Part shown: positions 36,566 to 55,194 of the stretch, one piece after another
Numbering within the stretch: the first letter of the stretch is position 1
How the letters are laid out: every line of letters starts with the position of its first letter
Source: the human T2T-CHM13v2.0 reference genome, Homo sapiens
Assembly: GCA_009914755.4 (NCBI GenBank)
Contig: CP068257.2
Coordinates: 43,328,001 to 43,392,000 of the forward strand
Direction: 5' to 3'
Length of the DNA stretch: 64,000 bases
Program-made: the position numbers and the translations under genes
Notes under the pieces: model-generated
What the model was told of the DNA's origin: nothing
The model's database searches: none
The model's input: the letters and a program-made list of their open reading frames with translations, nothing else

Positions 36566-38959
36566 GCCACTCAAGTCAGGACGAAGAAGATGCCGGTTTG
36601 TGCGGCGGTGCAGGGAGTGCCCTGCCTGCTGGCGTGCCCTTGACACGCAGACAGGGAGAGGCTGAGTGGACTTGATCAGAACAGCCCCTGCGGGCATTCA
36701 CACCACCTCCTGTGGTCACCCCTAGTGGAAGGAAGGCCCAGCAAGGAGACCTTGACCTCGCTGGCCCTGGGGCTGGGACCGGCGCCCTGGACAGTGTCCA
36801 CTCTCCCATTTCCATGGAACCACCATCCTCTCGGGCCTCCCCAGCCGCCAGCACACGTCCTGGAGTAGAGCCCTGTGAGGGGCCTGCCGCGTGCAGGGGG
36901 AGGGGTGTATCACGTGGGGTGGGACGAGGCTCATCTCTGGGCCTGGGGCCCCAGTACCGTCCTCTTAGGGCAGCGAGCTGCCTCCCAGTCCCCACGACCT
37001 CTGCTTGGGATGTGGGGCCTGACCCGTTCCTGCTACCAAAACCCAACTCAAGAGTTTTCCCAGATGCCCCCGGGACCCATAAAGCCTCGAAGGAAGCCAG
37101 GTTGGTGCCAGGCCCAGCTCTGTCTCCCACCTGCTAGGTGCCTGCTTGGGCTGCCCCCTCATCTGGAAGGGGTGCTAAGTGCCAGGACAGCGCCCCAGGT
37201 CCGGGGCACTCATGAGTGACAGCATCCTCCAGGTGTGGACTACAGGGTAGTCGGGCAACTGGGATCCTGCTCCTGGCCCAGCGCAGCGGAAAGGACAGAG
37301 CCAGACCCTCCAGCCACCCCTTCCAGGCTGTCTCCTTGTCCTCAGAGTGGGCAGAAGATCCCTGCCCTCCCCACCTGCCTGCTGTGGGGTCAGCTAAGAC
37401 AATGGGTGTGGGACCCTCCACAAGAACAGCCCCCTGTTAACAAAATGAGACTTGAAGGAGTGAGAGCACTTCGGGGGGCCGGGTTTGTCAGGCAGAGATT
37501 GCACCAGGCAGGGGGCCGAGACTTTGGAGAGGACCTGGCTGGAGCACTCGTCTGCACACAAGGAAAACAAAGGCTCAAAGACAGGGCAGAGTTCAGACCC
37601 TCCGTTCCCAAAGTGGTGCCCCCCACCCCTCCCAGGACTGTGTCCACACAGTGGTGCCCGCCAGGGTGGGCAGGAGGTGTCCATGGACATGACTACAGCA
37701 AGGCCAGGGGCCGAGAGGGAAGGGTCAGGGAAGACTGGCCAGCTCGAGGGGATCACAGAGGCTGCCCTGGCCTTGTTCCTAGCGGACAAAATAGGACTGA
37801 CAGCTACAGACAAAGCCAGGCACAGCCCAGCACAAAGACAGACAGCCGAGGAACTGTGGTGCCCCAGTAGTTAAGGGCCAGAAAGAACATTTTTAAAGAT
37901 GTCAGGGTTGGCTGCCAGAATCCTCTTGTACAACATTCCATGACTGGGAGTTGTTGGGGACTTGAGTTCCAGGCTGGCTCTGCCCAGCCTTGAAAGCCTG
38001 GCTGGGCCTCGGTTGCCTCCTTGGAAAATGAGGGGCTAGACTGAGGCCCTGGGGGTCCTGGCTGTGCCCAGAGCCTGCCGTGCCAGGCCCACGAGGAGAG
38101 GTCAGGGCTGGGGGTGCCGAGCCAGCTTCCCCAGGCTCCGGGTCAGGTTATCCAGGTGGGAGGGAGGCCTAGCACCTCCCCCACTCCGAGGTCTGGCTTC
38201 TAGAATCTCCTGCAGAAACACAAACCCATCTCACTACACTGTAAACACAACATCCTTGGAATTGGAAATCAATGGCAGATGCAGGCAGATTCAGCCTCCA
38301 AAGCCACAGAAGGGCTGGGAGCGGACCGGAGCCAGGAGTTGCCACGGGAGGTGGGTGCCTGGGAGCCCCAGCACAGAGGTGGCCCCTCTCAGGCCAGGCT
38401 GGGCCGCAGCATCTGTGGGCCCCTCCACGCCCCCTCCCATCCGTGCTGGCCCCATTGGCCTGGGCTCGCAGCTGGACTGCTTCCTGGGTGGAGGCACCAG
38501 GGCCCACAGTGGTACGGCCTGGCATTGGTGCAGGCTTTTAAGCATAGATGGCATCTTTAACAAAAATGGGCTCTCACAGAATGTTTTTAAATTAAAATGT
38601 AATTCACATACCTCGGAATTTACCTCTTGAAAGTCCAGGCAGTTCAGCGGCATCCGGTCCACCCCCACTGCGGTGCAGTGCCAGGGTGAGCCAGCCACCC
38701 CCGGCGGGAGAAACACCATCCCCACAGCCGGCGCTCCTGTGCCCCCTCCTCCCAGCCCCTGGCAGGCCTCGCCTCTGTGCGTTTCCCATGGATGAGGTCA
38801 TAGAGCGCGTGGCCTTCCGTGTCTGCCTCTTCCGGGCAGCAGCATGGTGGGTGTTTCTGAGGCTCCTCCGTGTCGCTCCACCCGTCAGCACTTCATGCCT
38901 CTCGGGGCTGGGCCACATTTCGTTGCAGGGATGGGCCACGTTTTTAACCTGTCCATCAG

Positions 38960-39085
38960 CGGACGGACGTTTGGGCTGATTTTATCTTTTGGCTATGATG
39001 AATAACGCGGTGATCAACATTGATTCACAAGTTTTGTGCGGACCCGTTTTCAGTTGTCCTGAGTATCAGCCCGGGCCTAGACTTC
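38960..39085 (-). mobile_element. L1 3'-end fragment, antisense, GC-shifted
   Basis: ttttggctatgatgaataacgcggtgatcaacattgattcacaagttttgtgcggacccgttttcagttgtcc versus recalled consensus ttttggctattatgaataatgctgctatgaacattcatgtacaagtttttgtgtggacatatgttttcagttctc. Confidence 0.5.
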
Positions 39086-39500
39086 CCGGGTTATATGGTG
39101 ATACAGTTTAAACGCATGTCCTTGCCAAGCCTCGTGTTGAACTGTCATCCCCCGTGTTGGAGGTGGGGCCTGGGGGCAGGTGTTTAGGTCACGGGCGTGA
39201 CTCCCTCAGGAATGGCTTGAGCCATCCCCGTGGTGAAGAGTGAGCTCTCACTCTGGGTTCCTGTGAGATCTGGTGTTTAAACGTGTGTGGCACCTCCCCG
39301 ACCCCGCTGCTCCCGCTTTCACCACGTGACTCGCCTGCTCCCCCTTCACCTTCCACCATGAGTAAGAGTTTCCTGAGGCCTCCCCAGAGGAAGAAGCCCT
39401 TATGCTCCTGTACAGCCTGCAGAACTGTGAGCCACTTAATCCTCTTCTCTTATAAATGACCTGGTCTCAGGTATTTATAGCTCCATAAAAACAGCTTAAC
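39085..39500 (+). mobile_element. MaLR (THE1/MST-like) solitary LTR
   Basis: …ggtgaagagtgagctctcactctgggttcctgtgagatctggtgtttaaacgtgtgtggcacctcc…ccaccatgagtaagagtttcctgaggcctccccaga…cctgtacagcctgcagaactgtgagccacttaatcctcttctcttataaatgacctggtctcaggtatttat matches the THE1/MST LTR 3' half. Confidence 0.7.
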
Positions 39501-41639: not shown

Positions 41640-42320
41640 ACGTGAAATAAACACACTTCTAAAGCATGCAATTTGGCAAGTTTTGACATGTGTACACTTA
41701 TGAAAACATCATCACAATCAAGATAACGAACCTATGCAGCACCCCCAACATTCCCTCTTGTCCCTCTGTGCAACCCCATCCCCCTTCTGCTCTCCGAGTA
41801 ACCCCATCCCCAGGCAACCACTGATCTGTTTCTGTCACTATAGATTAGTTTGCATTTTCTAGAAACTTGTATCAGTGGAATCATCCAGTATGGTTTTTTG
41901 TTGTTGTTGCTGTTGTTGTTGTTTTGGTTTGTTTCTTTTGGTCTGGCTCTTGTCACTCAGCATGATTATTCTGAGATCCGTCTGTGCTGCTGTGTGGATC
42001 AATGTGGCATATTCCTATTAGGATTCCATGGTATGGAGAGACTGCAATGATTATTCTGAGATCAATCTGTGCTGCTGTGTGGATCAATGTGGCATATTCC
42101 TATTAGGATTCCATTGTAAGGAGAGACTGCAGTTTGTTTACCGGTTCCCCTGTTGCTGGATATTTGGGCTGTTTCTAGTCCGTGGCCACTGCAAACAAAG
42201 CTGCTGTGAACATTCGTGAATATTTGTAGACAAGTCTTTGTATGGACGTATATGCTTTCATTTCCCTTGACAAAAAACTTAGGGTCAAAGGTCTGGATCC
42301 TGTGGGAGGCATATCATTAA
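41640..42320 (-). mobile_element. old L1 3'-end fragment, antisense
   Basis: …ggatatttgggctgtttctagtccgtggccactgcaaacaaagctgctgtgaacattcgtgaatatttgtagacaagtctttgtatggacgtatatgctttcatttcccttg… versus recalled L1 antisense consensus (ttgggttgtttccactttttggctattatgaataatgctgctatgaacattcgtgtacaagtctttgtgtggacatatgttttcatttctcttg). Confidence 0.6.
41962..42131. repeat. 85-bp tandem duplication (2 copies) inside the L1 fragment
   Basis: atgattattctgagatc(c/a)(g/a)tctgtgctgctgtgtggatcaatgtggcatattcctattaggattccat(g/t)gta(t/a)ggagagactgca repeated head to tail. Confidence 0.9.
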
Positions 42321-42322
42321 CT

Positions 42323-42638
<316 letters not shown>

Positions 42639-42719: not shown

Positions 42720-43115
42720 AGTTATTTGATATCTTGGTCTGCTCATGCTGCTCTAGCAAAATACCACAGAAAGGCGGTGGGGGTTAAACCACAAAAGTTA
42801 ATTTTCCCACCGTTCTAGAGGCTGGAAGTCCCTGACCAAAGTGCTGCTAGATTTGATTCCCCGTGAGGGCTCTCTCCTGGCTTGTTGACAGCCACCTCCT
42901 TGCTGTATCCTCACAGGGCCTTCACAAGTGCACACATGCAGAGAAAAAAGAGCAAACTCTCTGGTGTCTCTTCTCATAAGGACACTAATCCTATTGGATC
43001 AGGGCCCCACCTCTAGGACCTCATTTTACCTTAATTGCTTCCTTAGAGGCCCATCTCCAATACAGCCCCACTGGGGGCTAAGGCTTCAGTATACGAATTT
43101 TGGAGGGACACAGAC
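42720..43115. repeat. nested interspersed repeat (family not assigned) inserted within the L1, bounded by a direct repeat ctccacatcctca
   Basis: The L1 antisense alignment breaks at …gtttctccacatcctcag (about 42710) and resumes at tccacatcctcatcaacacttgat (about 43120). The intervening sequence (…gttctagaggctggaagtccctgaccaaagtgctg…cttataaggacactaatcctattggatcagggccccacc…gacctcattttaccttaattgcttcc…) resembles a very common human repeat I cannot name reliably. Confidence 0.35.
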
Positions 43116-45090
43116 ATTCAACCATGACACTCCACATCCTCATCAACACTTGATACTGTCAGTCTTTTTCATTTTAGCCATTTTAATGTGTGGACAGTGG
43201 CATTTTATGGTGGTTTTAATTTCCGTGGTAACTAATGATGTCGATCATCTTTTTTTTGTGTTTTGATCTGAATTTCTATGTCTTCTTTGAGGGATTTTCT
43301 ATTCAAAACTTTTGCCCATTTTTTAATGGTGTTATTAGTTTTCTTATTATTGAATTTTGGGAGTTCTTTAAGGCATGCTGGAGTCTTATCAGATTCATCA
43401 TTTGCAAATATTTTCTCCTGCTTTGTTGCCAATCTCTTCATTCTCTTAAACATGTCTTTTGCAGAGCAGAAGTTTTACATTTTGATGAATTCTAGTTTAT
43501 TCATTTATTTTGGCGTTGAATTTAAGAAATTTCTGCCTAACCTACAAAGATTTTCTCATATGTTTTCTTCTGGAAGTTTTATAGTTTTAGGTTTTACATT
43601 TAGATCTATAATCCATTTTGAGTTCATTTTTTATATGGCCCTGGGGTATAGATCAATGTTCCCTCTTCCATGTGGCTATTCCGTTGTTTTAGCACCGCTT
43701 GTTGAAAAGACCCTCTTTTCTTCACTGAGAGTCTTTTGTCAAAAACCAATTGTCCATGTGTGTATGGCTCTATTTCTGAGCATTTTATAAACACACTGTC
43801 TTGGTTACTACAGCTTTATAAAGTCTAAAAATCAGCTAGTGTAAATCCTCCAACTTTGCTCTTATCTTCCAACGATGTTCTGGTTGTTATAGGGCCTTTG
43901 CCTTTCTATGTGAATTTTAGAATGAGTTTGTCAAATCCTCTTCGAAAAAAAAGCCTTTTGAGACTTCAGTTGGGATTTTGCTGAATGTGCAGATCAATTT
44001 GGGGATAACTTCTGTCTTACGCACATGGAGTCTCAGCCCATGAAGATGGTGTAAGTTTTCATTTCTTATGTCCTCTTTCGTTTACTCAGCAATGTTTTCT
44101 CATTTTATGTGTACAAGACTTTCACACCTTCTATCAGATTTATCCCTAGTTCATAATTTTGATGTTACGACAAGTGTGTTGTTCTTTCCATTTTAATTTC
44201 TGGCTGTCCGTTGCTGGGGTATGGAAATGCAGTGACTCTTGGCATTGATCTTGACCTTGCAACCTTGTGATGCTCACTCTTCAGCTCCAGCAGCTTTTTG
44301 TTTCGTGAATTCCATTAGATTTTTTTGCATAGATGAACTTGTCTTCTGCAAATAAAGACAGTATTATTCTTTTCTTCCCAATAACGATGCCTTTCATTTT
44401 CTTTTTTCCTTCCTAATTGCCCTGACTAGAACCTCCTGTGCAATGCTGAATGGGACCATTGAGAGTGCTGTCCCTGACTTGTTCCTGGCCTCAGGGGAAG
44501 CACTCAGTCTTTCACAAGTAGGTGTGATGTCAGCTGTCGGGTGTTCAGAGATGCCTTTTATCAGGTTGAAGAAGTTGCTTCTACTCCTGTTTGCCAAGAG
44601 TGTTTTGAGAATGCATGTTGGAATTTGTCAAATGCTTTTTCTGTGTCTATTGAGACAATCACATTGTTCTTCTTTCAGTTTGTTAATATGGTGACTTAAA
44701 TTGATTTTTACGTGTTCAATCCTTAAGACAATCCTGATATATTGGGGAAAATTCTCCTTGGTTATGATGTATCATCTTTTTAATATGTTGTTGGGTTCAA
44801 TTTAGTAAGCTTTTGTTTAGGACTTCTAAAGGGGGATGCTTGTTCCTATATTCTTCTCCTGTAATGTCTTTGGTTTTCATATCAAGATCATGCTGGCCTC
44901 CTGGAAGGACTTGAGAAAAATCCCTGCTTTTCAACTTTCTGGAAGAGCTTATGTAGAATTGCTATTAGCTCTTTCTTAAATGTTGGCTGGAGCTCCCCTG
45001 TGAAGCCGTCTAAGCCCGGGGTTATTTTGTATGTGAGAGGGGAAGATTTTTAACTACAGATTCAATTTGCTCATCAGCCTTCTGCTGCCT
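43115..45090 (-). mobile_element. L1 LINE, about 2 kb of the ORF2 region, antisense (older L1P/L1M-type)
   Basis: Long collinear similarity to L1 antisense consensus: ggtggttttaatttccgtggtaactaatgatgtcgatcatc…ttttgcccattttttaatgg…ccattttgagttcattttttatatgg…gcaccgcttgttgaaaagaccctcttttc…caattgtccatgtgtgtatggctctatttctg…gcagatcaatttggggataacttctgtcttac…ctgcatagatgaacttgtcttctgcaaataaagacagtattattctttt…. Confidence 0.85.
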
Positions 45091-51400: not shown

Positions 51401-51840
51401 CTTGTGACCGGATGCTCCACGTTCCCTGCGTGCACACACTACAAAGCCCAGCCCGCTTTGTAGACATTTGGTTATTTCCAGATTCTCACTATTGTGAATA
51501 ACACAGCAATGAATACTGTGGTGACCTTATGTCGTTCATCTGCCTAATGTCTATTTGGGGACCCTCCCCCAACTCTTGGCTTGGTTGGGGCTGGTCCCAC
51601 TCCCAGCTCCAGGTGTGGGTGAGTCAGGCTGGGCTAGTCAGAGCCTCTCACCCTCCTAGTCACAGAAATGGGGTTGGGGATGGTTGCGTGGCCTGAGCCA
51701 AACCCATCAGAGCCCTCCCAGGGCTTCTGCCGAAATGCAGGGAAGGAGACACCCTCTGTTACTGGAGCTTGCTGGCCCCCGAGGGGACCTCTGGCCCACC
51801 ATGGGGGAGAGCCAAGCTGGAAAGTATCAGGGCTGTAAGA

Positions 51841-51915
51841 GACTTGAGTGGATAGGACTTGAGTGGACAGGACCTGAGTGGACAGGACCTGAGTGGACAG
51901 GACTTGAGTGGGCAG
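51841..51915. repeat. 15-bp tandem repeat x5 (GACTTGAGTGGACAG)
   Basis: Direct reading. Confidence 0.85.
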
Positions 51916-51989
51916 CTCTCCAGGGGAGACGTGGAGATGGCCAGTTGGCACATGTAAAGATGCTCAGCACCTGTAATCACCAGGGGAGT

Positions 51990-52290
51990 GCAGGGAAAAG
52001 TTACACCCATTAGGATGGCTACTATTAAAAAAAAAAACAAAACAGAAAATGACAAGTGTGAGGATGTGGAGAGACTGAAACCCTTGCGCTCTGCTGGCGG
52101 AGTGTAAGATGGTGCAGCCGCTATGGAAACCAGTATGGCGGTTCCTCAGAAAATTAAAAATAGAATTACCATAGGAGCCAGCAACCCCCTTGTGGGTCTA
52201 TACCCAGAAGAATTGCGGGTCTGGAAAAGACCTTTGTAGCCCATGTTCACAGCCGCGTTGTTCACGTTGGCTAAACGCCGGAGCAGCGGC
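51990..52290 (+). mobile_element. ancient L1 3'-end fragment, sense, strongly CpG-enriched, abutting the CpG island
   Basis: gtgtgaggatgtggagagactgaaacccttgcgctctgctggcggagtgtaagatggtgcagccgctatggaaaccagtatggcggttcctcagaaaattaaaaatagaattaccataggagccagcaaccccttgtgggtctatacccagaagaattg…cccatgttcacagccgcgttgttcacgttggctaaacgccgg versus recalled consensus …tggtgaggatgtggagaaactggaacac…cattgctggtgggaatgtaaaatggtacagccactttggaaaacagtttggcagttcctcaaaaagttaaacatagaattaccatatgacccagcaattccactcctaggtatatacccaagagaattg…cgaatgttcatagcagcattattcacaatagccaaaaagtgg. Confidence 0.6.
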
Positions 52291-53740
52291 GCCTCCAGGG
52301 AGGGTGGATGGGTGAACACGATGTGGGCCCCACGACAGCAGGACCGATGCAGCCTTTGAAGGAAGGGAATTGGGACGCAGCTGCCAGGGGTAAGCGTCGG
52401 GCCACGAAGGCCACGGGCCTGGGTCTCGCGTGGGGCCTTCATTGGGAGGAACAGCGAAGAGGCCACCCCCGCCCTCAGCCGTTCGTGCACTTGGTCCAGG
52501 CGGGACCCGGCAGGACCCCCAGCAGCCCCGGGAAGCGCCCGGACGACGGCACGGGGGCCCCAGGGCGCCGCGAAGGAAGCCCCCCGAGGGCGAGGCCGGG
52601 CGAGGCCAGGGGGCCGGGGCCAGAGGCGGTCGCGGCGGGGGTGGGTGTCCTGGAGCAGGAGCGGCAGCGGGAAACGAAGACACGCGCTTCTTCCTACTGG
52701 GGGGATGGCTGGGAAGTAAGACCGGCCGGGCCGCCGAGCCCGCTGCGAGGGGCTTCGCGTGGCGGCCGCACCTGAGCCCGAGCGCGCCCTTGAGAGGCGG
52801 CGCCCACGGGGGCAGAGACCCACGGTCCACGCGCAGACCCGGAGAACCCGCGATGTCGCCGCACGCAGCGCCGCTGTGAAGGACGGAGGCGGGGCGGGGC
52901 CCTGGGACAGGGAGCGGGTGGGGGCGGGGTGGGGGGGGACGGGACGGGGACAGGGAGCGGGTGGGGGCGGGGTGGGGGGGGGACGGGGCGGGGTGGGGGG
53001 GGACCGGACGGGGACAGGGAGCGGGTGGGGGCGGGGACGGGGGGCTCGGGGCCGGGTGGGGGGAGGGCCCGTCCGGGGCTGCGCGGGAAGCCCTGGGTTG
53101 GCCTTGGTGCTCTGTGATGCCCACGCTGGGTGCAAATGTTGCTTTGGTAAAAATAACAACAACGAAAGGAAAAGCCAAGCCGGACCAGCCCCACCCGCAG
53201 GGCCCCGGCCCCGGCCCCGGCCCCGCCCTTGGACTCTTCCCCGCCCCACCCCCACCCGTGGGCGAGCGAGCCCGGACCGTGAAGGGAGGGGGCGGGGCGG
53301 GGGCCCGGAGGGGCGGGGAGGGGCCGGGTCCTCCCGCGCGGGGTCCTGGAGGTCGCGGCACGCGCTCCCTGCAGGCGACCCTGGGGCGCGTCTGTCCCAG
53401 GCCCGGGCAGGACCCCCGCCCGCTGGTTGTCTGCGCGGCTGCCCCGCGCCCGCCGCCCCCGGCCGCTGTCGCGCGTTCCCAGACATTCTTTGGGCCCAAG
53501 GCTCCGGGCGTTCTGGCGGCGGCGCTGGGAAGAGGCCGGGCGCCGGCTCCCACAGCCGGGCCCTGTCCCGCTGGGCGCGGGCGATGCCATTCGTCACGCT
53601 CTATTATTGTAGGCAGCGCACCCCGGGGCTCGGTTCCCACACTGCGCCTGAGGCCTGGGGCCTGAGCGTGGGCCGCACCCGCCGACCTGGGGGGCCCTGG
53701 AGGGAGCGGCTCGGAGGGGCGCCGGTGCCTGGGCAGGTGG
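52280..53740. promoter_or_regulatory. CpG island (about 1.45 kb, very high GC and CpG density); candidate unmethylated promoter or first-exon region, strand undetermined
   Basis: Direct reading: dense CpG throughout (cagcggcgcctcc…cgtcgggccacgaagg…gccccgggaagcgcccggacgacggcacggg…gcgcgttcccag…cgggcgcgggcgatgccattcgtcacgc). No TATA box; typical CpG-island promoter look. Confidence 0.6.
52895..53065. repeat. G-rich imperfect tandem repeat inside the CpG island (GGAGCGGGTGGGGGCGGGGTGGGGGGGGACGGGACGGGGACAG, about 3.5 copies)
   Basis: Direct reading; G-runs of 4 to 10. Confidence 0.8.
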
Positions 53741-55194
53741 ATCTGGGAAAGATGCCACTGTTCCTGCCACGTCACTGCTGGCTGCAGGGTCCTGAGGTGG
53801 TGGCGGTGGTCCGTGGCCTGTGTCAGCTGTCATGTGCCGGCTGCAGGGGGCGGACAGGCCAAGGGACCCACCCCGACTTTACGATTAGAGTGTTGGGCCA
53901 AGGGTTTCTCTGGTTAAAGACCTGATGACCCTCCCATTGACAGCCACGGCCCAGCCAAGACCAGCACTACGCATCCCCTGGGCACACACCCCGGTGTCAG
54001 GACTCACCATGTGAGATCTAACCTGGCGGGCGCTATTTCCAGCCACACTGGAGGTCGGAGTCCAGACTCAGTTTCCTCACCTGGGAGACCGCATGGTAGC
54101 ACCCTCTCCAGAGGTGTCTGCATGGCGCTCCGAGAAGGGCCTGGCACCCCTGTCTATGGAAGCATGTTTAAGTTCTCCCATCCACACACAGAATGCCGCT
54201 GCCTCTGCTGCCACAGTCGCATGACACAAACCACAGTTACGGGACCTGGACTCTGGAGAAACGCAGAGAACCCACGGGGCCTGGCCCTCCGCCCTCACGA
54301 GCTCCACAAGGACTCAGCGGTGACCTGTGTGAGTGAGAGTGTGTGGTCCCATCGGGACAAAGGGAGCCACGTGGCCCACTCTTGGGCTGGAAGACAGGAA
54401 AGTAGAACTGTTTTCCCCCAAAAGTGAGCAGGGCAGCCACCTGCCTGGCAACACGGGTTCCCCACACTGGGAAAACTGAGGTCAATCAGTTCGACCTGTA
54501 CCTGTGCCACAGCCACTGTCTCTGCAGACCCATGGGTGCGACCTGAACACTAGGAACAGGCCTGTGCCCTGCTCCCCAGTGGAGGTGTCTGCTCCCGCCT
54601 GTGCACACTCAGGGTCAGTTGTCATGGGGGCCATCTGATCACTGCTGCTCCTTAGCAGCCAGGACAAGCCCAGGGACGCTGCACACTGCCAAGCCCACTT
54701 CATGCAAGTCCTGGCCGGAAGTCCATGCGATTCATGCAGAATTATGTCCCCACCCCCACCCCTCCCGCAGCCTCCACAGAGCCTGACCTGAGCTGTGGGC
54801 GGTCACTGGGGAGCAGTGACCAGAAGGCACATGGTCTATGCCCAGTGAGACCCCAGCCACTGCCTGCCTTCTCTTTCCGGCGGGTCCTGGGACCACCTCC
54901 CAGATAGATGACTTACACTCAAATCCTGGACTTGAGATCTAGTTCTGAAGAAACCAAACCAAGATGGGCAAAACGTCCACAAAAAGAGAAACACGAATAG
55001 CCAACAACGACATGAAAAATGTTTAGGAATCTAAGAGAGACAAATTCTAAGGGGAGATCGTATTTCACCCTCCAGACTGACGACCTTCAGTGGCGTGGTA
55101 AGAAAGCCAGGCGTGGCGAGGCCAGCAGCACAGGATGTCCGCGCCTGACCCTCCCACGACCCTTCGGGAAGTCTTTTGGGCAATATGAACTGAG

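What the first reader, a model, noticed from the sequence alone, without database searches (positions are those of the whole stretch)
51990..52290. CpG-enriched ancient L1 fragment grading directly into a CpG island
The L1 3' piece shows cagcca to cagccg, tttggcag to tatggcgg, attgaaaac to attgcgggtc, catagcagcattattcacaatagccaaaaagtgg to cacagccgcgttgttcacgttggctaaacgccgg. These are repeated CpA/TpG to CpG changes. Its 3' edge (about 52290) is continuous with the CpG island. Either the island boundary has spread into the repeat through unmethylated germline status plus gBGC, or the repeat was partly converted by GC-rich paralogous sequence.
Basis: partly seen in the sequence, partly recalled or inferred. 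Interest (0 to 1): 0.55.

Follow-up and report, generated by a model that had tools for sequence, protein, structure and literature searches.

The report
Old L1 fragment absorbed into CpG island
An ancient LINE-1 fragment next to a CpG island has been rewritten by a strong excess of A/T-to-G/C substitutions, so the island's edge now lies inside the repeat; this is a clear single-locus example of already described processes, not a new kind of element.

Summary
Window 51,895-52,372 (+) is a decayed L1 ORF2 C-terminal fragment of the mammalian-wide (L1M) type, in a primate, GC-rich, minisatellite-rich region. It does not stop at 52,290. Colinear L1 homology runs to about 52,372, and possibly to 52,420. 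The formal CpG island (52,151-53,750; GC 73%, CpG o/e 0.79) starts inside the repeat.

In the homologous 283 bp, 74 other L1 copies carry a median of 2 CpGs (maximum 5); this copy carries 14.

Nearly all of these CpGs are derived rather than ancestral. About 22 reference L1s carry CG at 0-2 of them per site. Six sites are uniformly TG or CA in the references, which means single-transition gains. The rest arose from AA, AG, TA, AC or CT.

CpG gain is part of a general bias: W>S 62/201 against S>W 9/93. Control old L1 copies show 193/2028 and 180/992 (p = 7e-9). Implied equilibrium GC is 0.76 against 0.34. The bias rises towards the island.

The best reading is GC-biased gene conversion plus germline hypomethylation spreading from the island. 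Neither methylation nor recombination could be tested. A paralogous donor is not supported. A second CpG-rich L1M fragment at 38.6-39.1 kb shows the effect is not unique. The phenomenon is known; interest is low.

The parts
51895..52372 (+). Decayed L1 (L1M-type) ORF2 C-terminal fragment with frameshifts, stop codons, an internal ~25-bp deletion near 51,997 and a 5-bp deletion at 52,216
   Evidence: tblastn of P0001-P0120; nhmmer E = 3.7e-52 for 52,001-52,274; W>S-tolerant colinear alignment 52,280-52,370 scores 52 against a shuffle maximum of 36, 0/500
52373..52420 (+). Possible continuation of the L1 fragment, nearly erased by W>S substitutions
   Evidence: Anchored alignment to an L1M-type consensus, which was partly hand-corrected from memory: 16/1000 shuffles and 3/122 other island segments reach the score; not significant with plain scoring
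52100..52200 (.). Transition zone inside the L1 where CpG depletion stops (CpG/GpC rises from 0.25-0.38 to 0.88)
   Evidence: Binned CpG o/e and CpG/GpC
52151..53750 (.). CpG island, 1.6 kb, GC 73%, CpG o/e 0.79, 166 CpGs; its first ~220 bp are L1-derived
   Evidence: Sliding-window scan at 200 bp, GC >= 0.55, o/e >= 0.6
51841..51915 (+). 15-bp x 5 minisatellite (GACTTGAGTGGACAG) at the 5' end of the L1 fragment; the unit aligns with L1 'GATATGAACAGACAT'
   Evidence: TRF; multiple alignment
52904..53063 (+). G-rich 43/64-bp minisatellite in the island core; no demonstrable L1 origin
   Evidence: TRF; L038-based alignment not above shuffles
38640..39130 (-). Comparator: a second ancient L1M 3' fragment, also GC- and CpG-enriched (GC 59%, o/e 0.68), with no large island next to it

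Best explanation
An L1M element inserted long ago, in a mammalian ancestor, next to what is now a CpG island, or the island formed beside it. Two processes have acted on the fragment since.

1. A GC-biased fixation process, most likely GC-biased gene conversion. It is strong across this subtelomere-like region and strongest near the island. It converted about a quarter of ancestral A/T sites to G/C at the far end of the fragment and about half at the island end, and it suppressed G/C-to-A/T changes. New CpGs are a by-product, formed from CpA/TpG by one transition or from other dinucleotides.

2. From about 52,150 onward the DNA lies within the island's germline-hypomethylated domain. The new CpGs there are not lost by methyl-cytosine deamination, so CpG o/e climbs to island values.

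The net effect is that the island boundary has moved at least 220 bp into the repeat.

Shown: L1 identity and extent, derived status of most CpGs, the W>S bias and its gradient, the sharp change in CpG depletion, and ordinary CpG decay in Alus a few kb away. Inferred: that the bias is gene conversion rather than mutation bias, and that the CpG-rich part is unmethylated in the germline.
For: Substitution spectrum: t52 has W>S 62/201 and S>W 9/93. Eight control old L1 copies have 193/2028 and 180/992. Fisher p = 6.8e-9. GC* is 0.76 (bootstrap 0.64-0.88) against 0.34.

Gradient: W>S per W site is 0.26, 0.20, 0.22, 0.40 and 0.47 in successive bins. Converted sites lie nearer the island (one-sided Mann-Whitney p = 0.0055).

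Strand symmetry: A>G 33/137 against T>C 11/64 shows no strong asymmetry, which argues against a transcription-strand mutational cause.

CpGs are derived: the references carry CG at 0-2 of ~22 per site, and six sites are homogeneous TG or CA, not the TG/CA mixture expected from decay of an ancestral CpG.

CpG depletion: the upstream flank 51,500-51,894 has GC 57% but o/e 0.12, whereas 52,190-52,289 has o/e 0.97. Alus 4-6 kb on either side kept only 2-5 of 24 consensus CpGs, with TG/CA products. Methylation-driven decay therefore operates in the flanks but not in the 3' part of the L1.

Literature:
- gBGC is stronger in germline-hypomethylated regions in many mammals and is proposed to explain the GC-richness of CpG islands (PMC11161765).
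- New CpGs arise as a by-product of biased gene conversion (PMC3469460).
- Sperm hypomethylated regions widen over evolutionary time, notably in primates (PMC5793779).
Against: - No methylation, recombination or polymorphism data were available, so both mechanistic steps are inferred from sequence alone.
- PMC11161765 reports that in humans and mice hypomethylated promoter-like sites currently show a deficit of recombination. The conversion would therefore have to be largely historical or driven by the regional, subtelomere-like rate.
- The proxy ancestor is a majority consensus of mostly younger L1 lineages, not the true source subfamily. Some apparent substitutions are subfamily differences: t52 shares more derived sites with L066 than expected (p = 0.026).
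- The second CpG-rich L1 at 38.6-39.1 kb has no large island beside it, so adjacency to an island is not necessary for the effect.
Confidence: 0.6

Rival explanations
1. Biased gene conversion alone in methylated DNA (the 'BGC island' regime). CpG density at the L1 edge is held up only by a very high W>S gain rate, with no hypomethylation of the repeat.
For: The whole window is GC-rich (59%) and full of minisatellites, which looks subtelomere-like. The L1 at 38.6-39.1 kb became CpG-rich without a neighbouring large island. BGC islands are a described class (PMC8286816, summarising Cohen et al. 2011).
Against: The adjacent upstream flank is equally GC-rich (57%) but has CpG o/e of only 0.12. 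CpG/GpC reaches 0.8-0.9 in the L1's 3' part and 0.95-1.0 in the core, which fits little or no deamination loss.
Confidence: 0.15
2. A local mutational bias, not a fixation bias. Open or unmethylated chromatin, or transcription initiation at the island, alters repair so that A/T>G/C mutations are over-produced near the island.
For: The W>S excess rises towards the island. Sequence alone cannot separate mutation bias from fixation bias.
Against: S>W is also reduced: 0.10 against 0.18 per site in the controls. That is expected from a fixation bias. There is no clear strand asymmetry between A>G and T>C.
Confidence: 0.1
3. Retention, not gain. The CpGs were in the L1 at insertion and were simply protected by the island's unmethylated state.
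For: 52254 is CG in t52 and in the second window copy, and CA in L066, the three copies that share the diagnostic GCC. 52139 is CG in the L1PA family consensus.
Against: At 13 or more of the 15 sites the ~22 references agree on a non-CpG dinucleotide. Where it is TG or CA it is homogeneous (for example CA 19/21 at 52119, CA 20/23 at 52256, TG 19/22 at 52098). Five to seven L1M-like copies show the same state. Retention cannot explain the 62 W>S changes, most of which are outside CpGs.
Confidence: 0.05
4. Non-allelic gene conversion. Part of the L1 was overwritten by a GC-rich paralogous sequence.
For: Donors elsewhere in the genome could not be searched.
Against: Alignment to L1 stays colinear with scattered point changes and only 1-nt gaps, with no block replacement. 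There is no GC-rich paralogue of 52,050-52,420 in the window. The other CpG-rich L1 shares only 13 of 53 derived states, no more than the unrelated copy L066 does.
Confidence: 0.03
5. Selection. The L1 edge was recruited into a promoter or CpG-island function, and GC/CpG content was raised by positive selection.
For: None directly. The sequence lies in the first 220 bp of a strong island.
Against: Changes are spread evenly as W>S across former coding sequence with no motif structure. The same pattern occurs in the L1 at 38.6-39.1 kb. Published modelling finds little selection on island CpG density (PMC8286816).
Confidence: 0.05

Closest known systems
Heterogeneous evolutionary regimes of primate CpG islands (Cohen, Kenigsberg & Tanay 2011, as summarised in PMC8286816): hypo-deaminated unmethylated islands versus biased-gene-conversion islands
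   Same: High CpG density is explained by low deamination and/or GC-biased gain without invoking selection. This locus shows both signatures: W>S bias and no CpG depletion.
   Different: Here the two signatures are read on a datable substrate (an L1 fragment) at one island edge. Which regime applies cannot be settled without methylation data.
gBGC at germline-hypomethylated, PRDM9-independent recombination hotspots (PMC11161765)
   Same: A sharp, sub-kilobase rise in equilibrium GC centred on a hypomethylated, promoter-like region. The same GC* statistic gives 0.76 here against 0.34 in control copies.
   Different: That study found humans and mice currently have a deficit of recombination at such sites and warns that the method is not suited to single loci. 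The signal here integrates the whole history since the L1 inserted.
Evolutionary widening of sperm hypomethylated regions (PMC5793779)
   Same: The boundary of a non-depleted CpG domain lies inside sequence that was once an ordinary repeat, as expected if the hypomethylated interval widened.
   Different: Widening there was measured from methylomes. Here it is only inferred from CpG o/e.
CpG 'beacon' clusters and biased clustered substitutions near chromosome ends (PMC3469460 and references therein to Dreszer et al. 2007)
   Same: Clusters of newly created CpGs that accompany W>S substitution bias in GC-rich, recombination-prone regions.
   Different: Beacons are human-specific gains polarised with chimpanzee. 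The gains here are undated and probably much older.

Membership tests
LINE-1 (L1M-type) ORF2 C-terminal fragment | Significant sequence homology to L1 ORF2, at protein and DNA level | tested here: met
   612 L1 ORF2 fragments at E <= 1e-3, best 9.5e-20; tblastn 51,895-52,401; nhmmer E = 3.7e-52
LINE-1 (L1M-type) ORF2 C-terminal fragment | Colinearity with the element over its length, as opposed to a short motif match | tested here: met
   Model positions 30-306 map to 52,001-52,274, and positions 313-408 map to 52,280-52,370 with only 1-nt gaps
LINE-1 (L1M-type) ORF2 C-terminal fragment | Assignment to a named ancient subfamily (L1MA/MB/MC) by the Dfam/Repbase consensus | not testable with these tools
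   No repeat library is available. The closest real copies are L066 (73% over 270 bp) and L038, L084 and L089, which carry an L1M-type ORF2 end and 3' UTR. 'L1MB/MC-like' rests on recollection only.
LINE-1 (L1M-type) ORF2 C-terminal fragment | 3' UTR, poly(A) tail and target-site duplication | tested here: not met
   No L1 homology is demonstrable beyond 52,420. The element is either truncated or its 3' end has been erased inside the island.
CpG island (Gardiner-Garden/Takai-Jones type criteria) | Length >= 500 bp, GC >= 55%, CpG o/e >= 0.6-0.65 | tested here: met
   52,151-53,750: 1,600 bp, GC 73.3%, o/e 0.79
CpG island (Gardiner-Garden/Takai-Jones type criteria) | Unmethylated in the germline; promoter or other regulatory activity | not testable with these tools
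   No methylome or transcript data. No Rfam match in the window. The associated gene was not identified.
GC-biased gene conversion tract / BGC-driven GC enrichment | Excess of W>S over S>W substitutions relative to comparable sequence elsewhere | tested here: met
   62:9 against 193:180, p = 6.8e-9; GC* 0.76 against 0.34
GC-biased gene conversion tract / BGC-driven GC enrichment | Spatial clustering or gradient on the scale of conversion tracts (hundreds of bp) | tested here: met
   W>S per W site rises from about 0.2 to 0.47 over 380 bp; p = 0.0055
GC-biased gene conversion tract / BGC-driven GC enrichment | Coincidence with high recombination or a DSB hotspot, and W>S derived alleles skewed to high frequency | not testable with these tools
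   No recombination maps or polymorphism data. The degenerate PRDM9 13-mer has one match, in the G-rich repeat at 53,031, which is uninformative.
Non-allelic (paralogous) gene conversion | An identifiable donor with block-wise shared derived states | tested here: not met
   No paralogue in the window. Sharing with the copy at 38.6-39.1 kb is 13 same-base sites out of 53, similar to the unrelated L066. The genome-wide donor search was not possible.

The most novel reading that the evidence does not exclude
The island may be built from the L1 to a much larger extent than can be shown. The missing ~600 bp of ORF2 end and 3' UTR, including its G-rich tract, could lie under 52,420-53,060. They would have been driven past recognition by W>S substitution and minisatellite expansion. 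A strong 1.6-kb CpG island would then be largely a transformed ancient retrotransposon 3' end. The only hint is a colinear alignment of the other GC-enriched L1M 3' end (38.6-39.1 kb) to 52,499-52,796. It scores 98 against shuffles of 77 +/- 8 (3/200) and other islands at 42-65. However, it is offset by about 115 bp from the expected position and is not significant with plain scoring or with L038.
Probability: 0.12. Interest if true: 0.45.

Novelty: already known. Interest (0 to 1): 0.2.

Why it matters
A datable repeat at an island edge acts as a natural recorder. Its ancestral sequence can be reconstructed, so the locus shows directly that island-like sequence can be made from AT-rich transposon DNA by biased substitution plus escape from CpG decay, and that the island boundary is not fixed. 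It illustrates published genome-wide models (island regimes, gBGC at hypomethylated regions, widening of hypomethylated regions) and does not extend them. The practical lesson is for repeat annotation near islands: standard scoring lost the last 100-150 bp of this L1.

Tried and rejected
- Pfam scan of the repaired translation: no family. The fragment lies outside any Pfam model region that scored.
- L1 pattern scan of viral contigs: 0 hits.
- Rfam over the whole window: 0 matches, so the locus could not be named.
- Plain-scoring alignment beyond 52,275: not significant (z = 1.6). Only a W>S-tolerant matrix recovers 52,280-52,370.
- Extension beyond 52,420 with the general profile, the L1M-type consensus and L038: no signal. 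With the 38.6-39.1 kb copy as reference the result is borderline (3/200) and positionally inconsistent, so I did not accept it.
- PRDM9-type 13-mer: 18 matches in the window against 9.7 expected, one inside the island's G-rich repeat. Not informative.
- Strand asymmetry as a sign of transcription-coupled mutation: not seen.
- Shared derived states between the two CpG-rich L1 copies as a sign of conversion or duplication: weak (26 against 19.3 expected, 13 same-base). This is comparable to an unrelated copy and is attributed to subfamily-diagnostic sites.
- A search of all fetched loci for further members of the GCC-carrying subfamily at 52,252-52,257 found none beyond t52, the 38.6-39.1 kb copy and L066.
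- I ran no further search on primate orthologues. The first search returned only 621 L1 candidates, all from metagenome host contamination. Primate genomic ORFs are therefore evidently not represented at scale.

Full report
**Context.** The window is primate: seven Alu copies match an Alu consensus at 81-91% identity. It has 59% GC, a CpG o/e of 0.37 overall, and many long minisatellites. That is the character of a recombination-prone, subtelomere-like region. I could not name the locus: Rfam gave no match and no gene was recognised.

**Is the repeat real, and where does it lie?**
- Translating 51,960-52,420 gives broken but recognisable L1 ORF2 C-terminal sequence in two frames.
- A repaired 110-residue translation finds 612 L1 ORF2 fragments (best E = 9.5e-20).
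- Those proteins hit the window at 51,895-52,401 (+) by tblastn. They also hit four other L1 pieces on the minus strand: 38.8-39.1 kb, 42.0-43.5 kb, 51.45-51.54 kb and 58.9-59.6 kb.

For DNA references I fetched 80 L1 loci from host-contaminated metagenome contigs and 9 from contaminated bacterial assemblies.
- Clustering gave five multi-copy families, one of them L1PA-like, plus many old singletons.
- The closest copies to the target are L066 (73% over 270 bp) and L038, L084 and L089. These carry an L1M-type ORF2 end and 3' UTR.
- A profile of 22 references hits 52,001-52,274 with E = 3.7e-52.

The subfamily name could not be tested without a repeat library. 'L1MB/MC-like' is my recollection only.

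**Where does the L1 end?** Standard scoring stops near 52,274-52,294, but the sequence beyond is visibly L1: GGTGGATGGGTGAACACGATGTGG against GATGAATGGATAAAGAAAATGTGG.
- With a matrix that tolerates A/T>G/C changes, model positions 313-408 align colinearly to 52,280-52,370. The score is 52. Five hundred dinucleotide shuffles reach at most 36, and 55 other segments of the same island reach at most 18.5.
- With an L1M-type consensus, partly hand-corrected from memory, 52,373-52,420 is borderline: 16/1000 shuffles and 3/122 island segments reach the score.
- Beyond that point nothing is demonstrable.

By sliding-window criteria the island spans 52,151-53,750 (GC 73%, o/e 0.79).

**Is the CpG enrichment more than chance?** In the segment homologous to 52,090-52,372:

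| Copies | CpGs | GC |
|---|---|---|
| 74 other L1 copies | median 2, maximum 5 | mean 38% |
| target | 14 | 54% |
| window copy at 38.6-39.1 kb | 15 | 51% |

All figures are; the chimeric contig L053 is excluded. Along the target L1, CpG o/e runs 0.14, 0.26, 0.50, 0.97, 0.55 and 0.80, then 0.77-0.90 in the core. CpG/GpC climbs from 0.17 to 0.88. The switch from depleted to non-depleted happens inside the repeat, at about 52,100-52,200.

**Ancestral or derived CpGs?** For the 15 CpGs between 52,087 and 52,345, the ~22 references carry CG at 0-2 sequences per site.
- Six sites are homogeneous for one decay-type dinucleotide: TG 19/22 at 52098, CA 19/21 at 52119, CA 20/23 at 52256, CA 17/22 at 52265, TG 18/23 at 52279 and TG 19/23 at 52290.
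- The others sit where the references have AA, AG, TA, AC or CT, so they needed other changes.
- Exceptions: 52254 is probably CpG in the source subfamily. The target, the 38.6-39.1 kb copy and L066 share a diagnostic GCC; the first two have CG and L066 has CA.
- 52256 and 52139 are ambiguous. 52139 is CG in the L1PA consensus but CA in five L1M-like copies.

**The wider pattern.** I compared sequences at columns where at least 70% of the references agree.

| Sequence | W>S | S>W | Implied GC* |
|---|---|---|---|
| target, 51,990-52,372 | 62/201 | 9/93 | 0.76 (bootstrap 0.64-0.88) |
| eight control old L1 copies, pooled | 193/2028 | 180/992 | 0.34 |

- Fisher p = 6.8e-9; the bootstrap is.
- The L1M-like controls L038 and L066 show W>S of only 0.07-0.12 against the same proxy. 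The source subfamily was therefore not intrinsically GC-rich.
- W>S per ancestral W site is 0.26, 0.20, 0.22, 0.40 and 0.47 in successive bins towards the island, and 0.61 in the uncertain 52,373-52,420.
- Converted sites lie significantly nearer the island (p = 0.0055).
- Identity to the proxy ancestor falls from 81% to 61%.
- A>G (33/137) and T>C (11/64) do not differ much, so there is no clear transcription-strand signature.

CpG gain is thus one facet of a general GC-biased process.

**Local or regional?** Both.
- The upstream flank 51,500-51,894 is GC-rich (57%) but strongly CpG-depleted (o/e 0.12).
- Alus 4-6 kb on either side kept only 2-5 of 24 consensus CpGs, with the usual TG/CA products. 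Methyl-CpG decay therefore operates around the island.
- A second ancient L1M fragment at 38.6-39.1 kb has W>S 87/208 and S>W 20/96, with CpG o/e 0.68, yet has no large island next to it.
- The L1 at 41.6-43.5 kb, only 3 kb further, is not enriched.
- The bias is therefore patchy on a kilobase scale, as expected for recombination-linked processes.

**Mechanism.** Hypomethylation alone cannot create 62 W>S changes, most of them outside CpGs. Retention of ancestral CpGs is largely excluded.
- A fixation bias of the gBGC type predicts exactly what is seen: raised W>S, lowered S>W and a sub-kilobase gradient.
- gBGC is reported to be stronger at germline-hypomethylated regions in many mammals (PMC11161765). 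That paper notes a present-day deficit in humans, so the signal here is probably historical and/or regional.
- CpGs created as a by-product of biased gene conversion are described in PMC3469460.
- Evolutionary widening of sperm hypomethylated regions, especially in primates, is described in PMC5793779.
- The heterogeneous island regimes are summarised in PMC8286816.

My best reading (confidence about 0.6) is gBGC-type enrichment plus spread of the island's hypomethylated domain over the 3' part of the L1. The rivals are BGC alone in methylated DNA, a chromatin-linked mutational bias, pure retention, paralogous conversion and selection. They are scored in the rival section.

Paralogous conversion is disfavoured for three reasons. 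L1 colinearity is unbroken. No GC-rich paralogue exists in the window. The two enriched copies share only 13 derived states.

**Limits.**
- The proxy ancestor is a majority consensus of mostly younger lineages.
- Only three copies of the putative source subfamily were available.
- No methylation, recombination, polymorphism or orthologue data could be consulted.
- The L1M-type consensus used was partly corrected from memory.

**Verdict.** The phenomenon is a clean single-locus illustration of known processes. Interest is 0.2.

Noticed in passing
window 38,500-39,250 (- strand): A second ancient L1M 3' fragment (ORF2 end plus 3' UTR), with an adjoining old repeat, forms a small CpG-rich patch of its own. 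It has GC 59%, o/e 0.68, W>S 87/208 and S>W 20/96, and no large island beside it. It shares CG with the target at 52254, 52256, 52290 and 52376.
   Followed up: partly
window 51,841-51,915: A 15-bp x 5 minisatellite (GACTTGAGTGGACAG) lies at the 5' end of the L1 fragment. Its unit aligns with the L1 ORF2 sequence GATATGAACAGACAT, so the array appears to have grown out of L1 sequence.
   Followed up: partly
window 51,463-51,526 (- strand): A small separate L1 ORF2 piece in the opposite orientation lies about 400 bp upstream of the main fragment (nhmmer E = 1.1e-6).
   Followed up: no
window 52,904-53,063 and 53,201-53,225: The island core contains a G-rich 43/64-bp minisatellite (runs of GGGG, G-quadruplex-like) and a (GGCCCC)x4 repeat.
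   Followed up: no
window ~54,040-54,150: By eye, a MIR-like core (CTCAGTTTCCTCACCTGG...) lies on the far shore of the island, with moderately raised CpG (o/e 0.42-0.5). It was not recovered by blast with a remembered MIR consensus.
   Followed up: no
window 11.0-11.7 kb, 14.1-15.5 kb, 16.8-18.3 kb, 25.0-25.5 kb, 62.1-63.2 kb: Large GC-rich minisatellite arrays show up as long repetitive ORFs in several frames. Together with 59% GC they suggest a subtelomere-like setting.
   Followed up: no
window 42,343-42,622 and 42,760-43,130 (within the L1 at 41.6-43.5 kb): This L1MA-like copy is interrupted by an Alu and by another interspersed repeat. It carries an internal ~60-bp duplication and a (CAA)n-like tract near 41,900-41,960. 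Unlike its neighbour 3 kb away it is not GC-enriched.
   Followed up: no
loci L081-L089, L053: Mammalian L1 fragments sit in assemblies labelled Legionella sp., Streptococcus mitis/oralis, Chromatium weissei, Actinomadura cremea and several MAGs, which indicates host-DNA contamination. L053 is a chimeric contig: L1 followed by unrelated GC-rich DNA.
   Followed up: no
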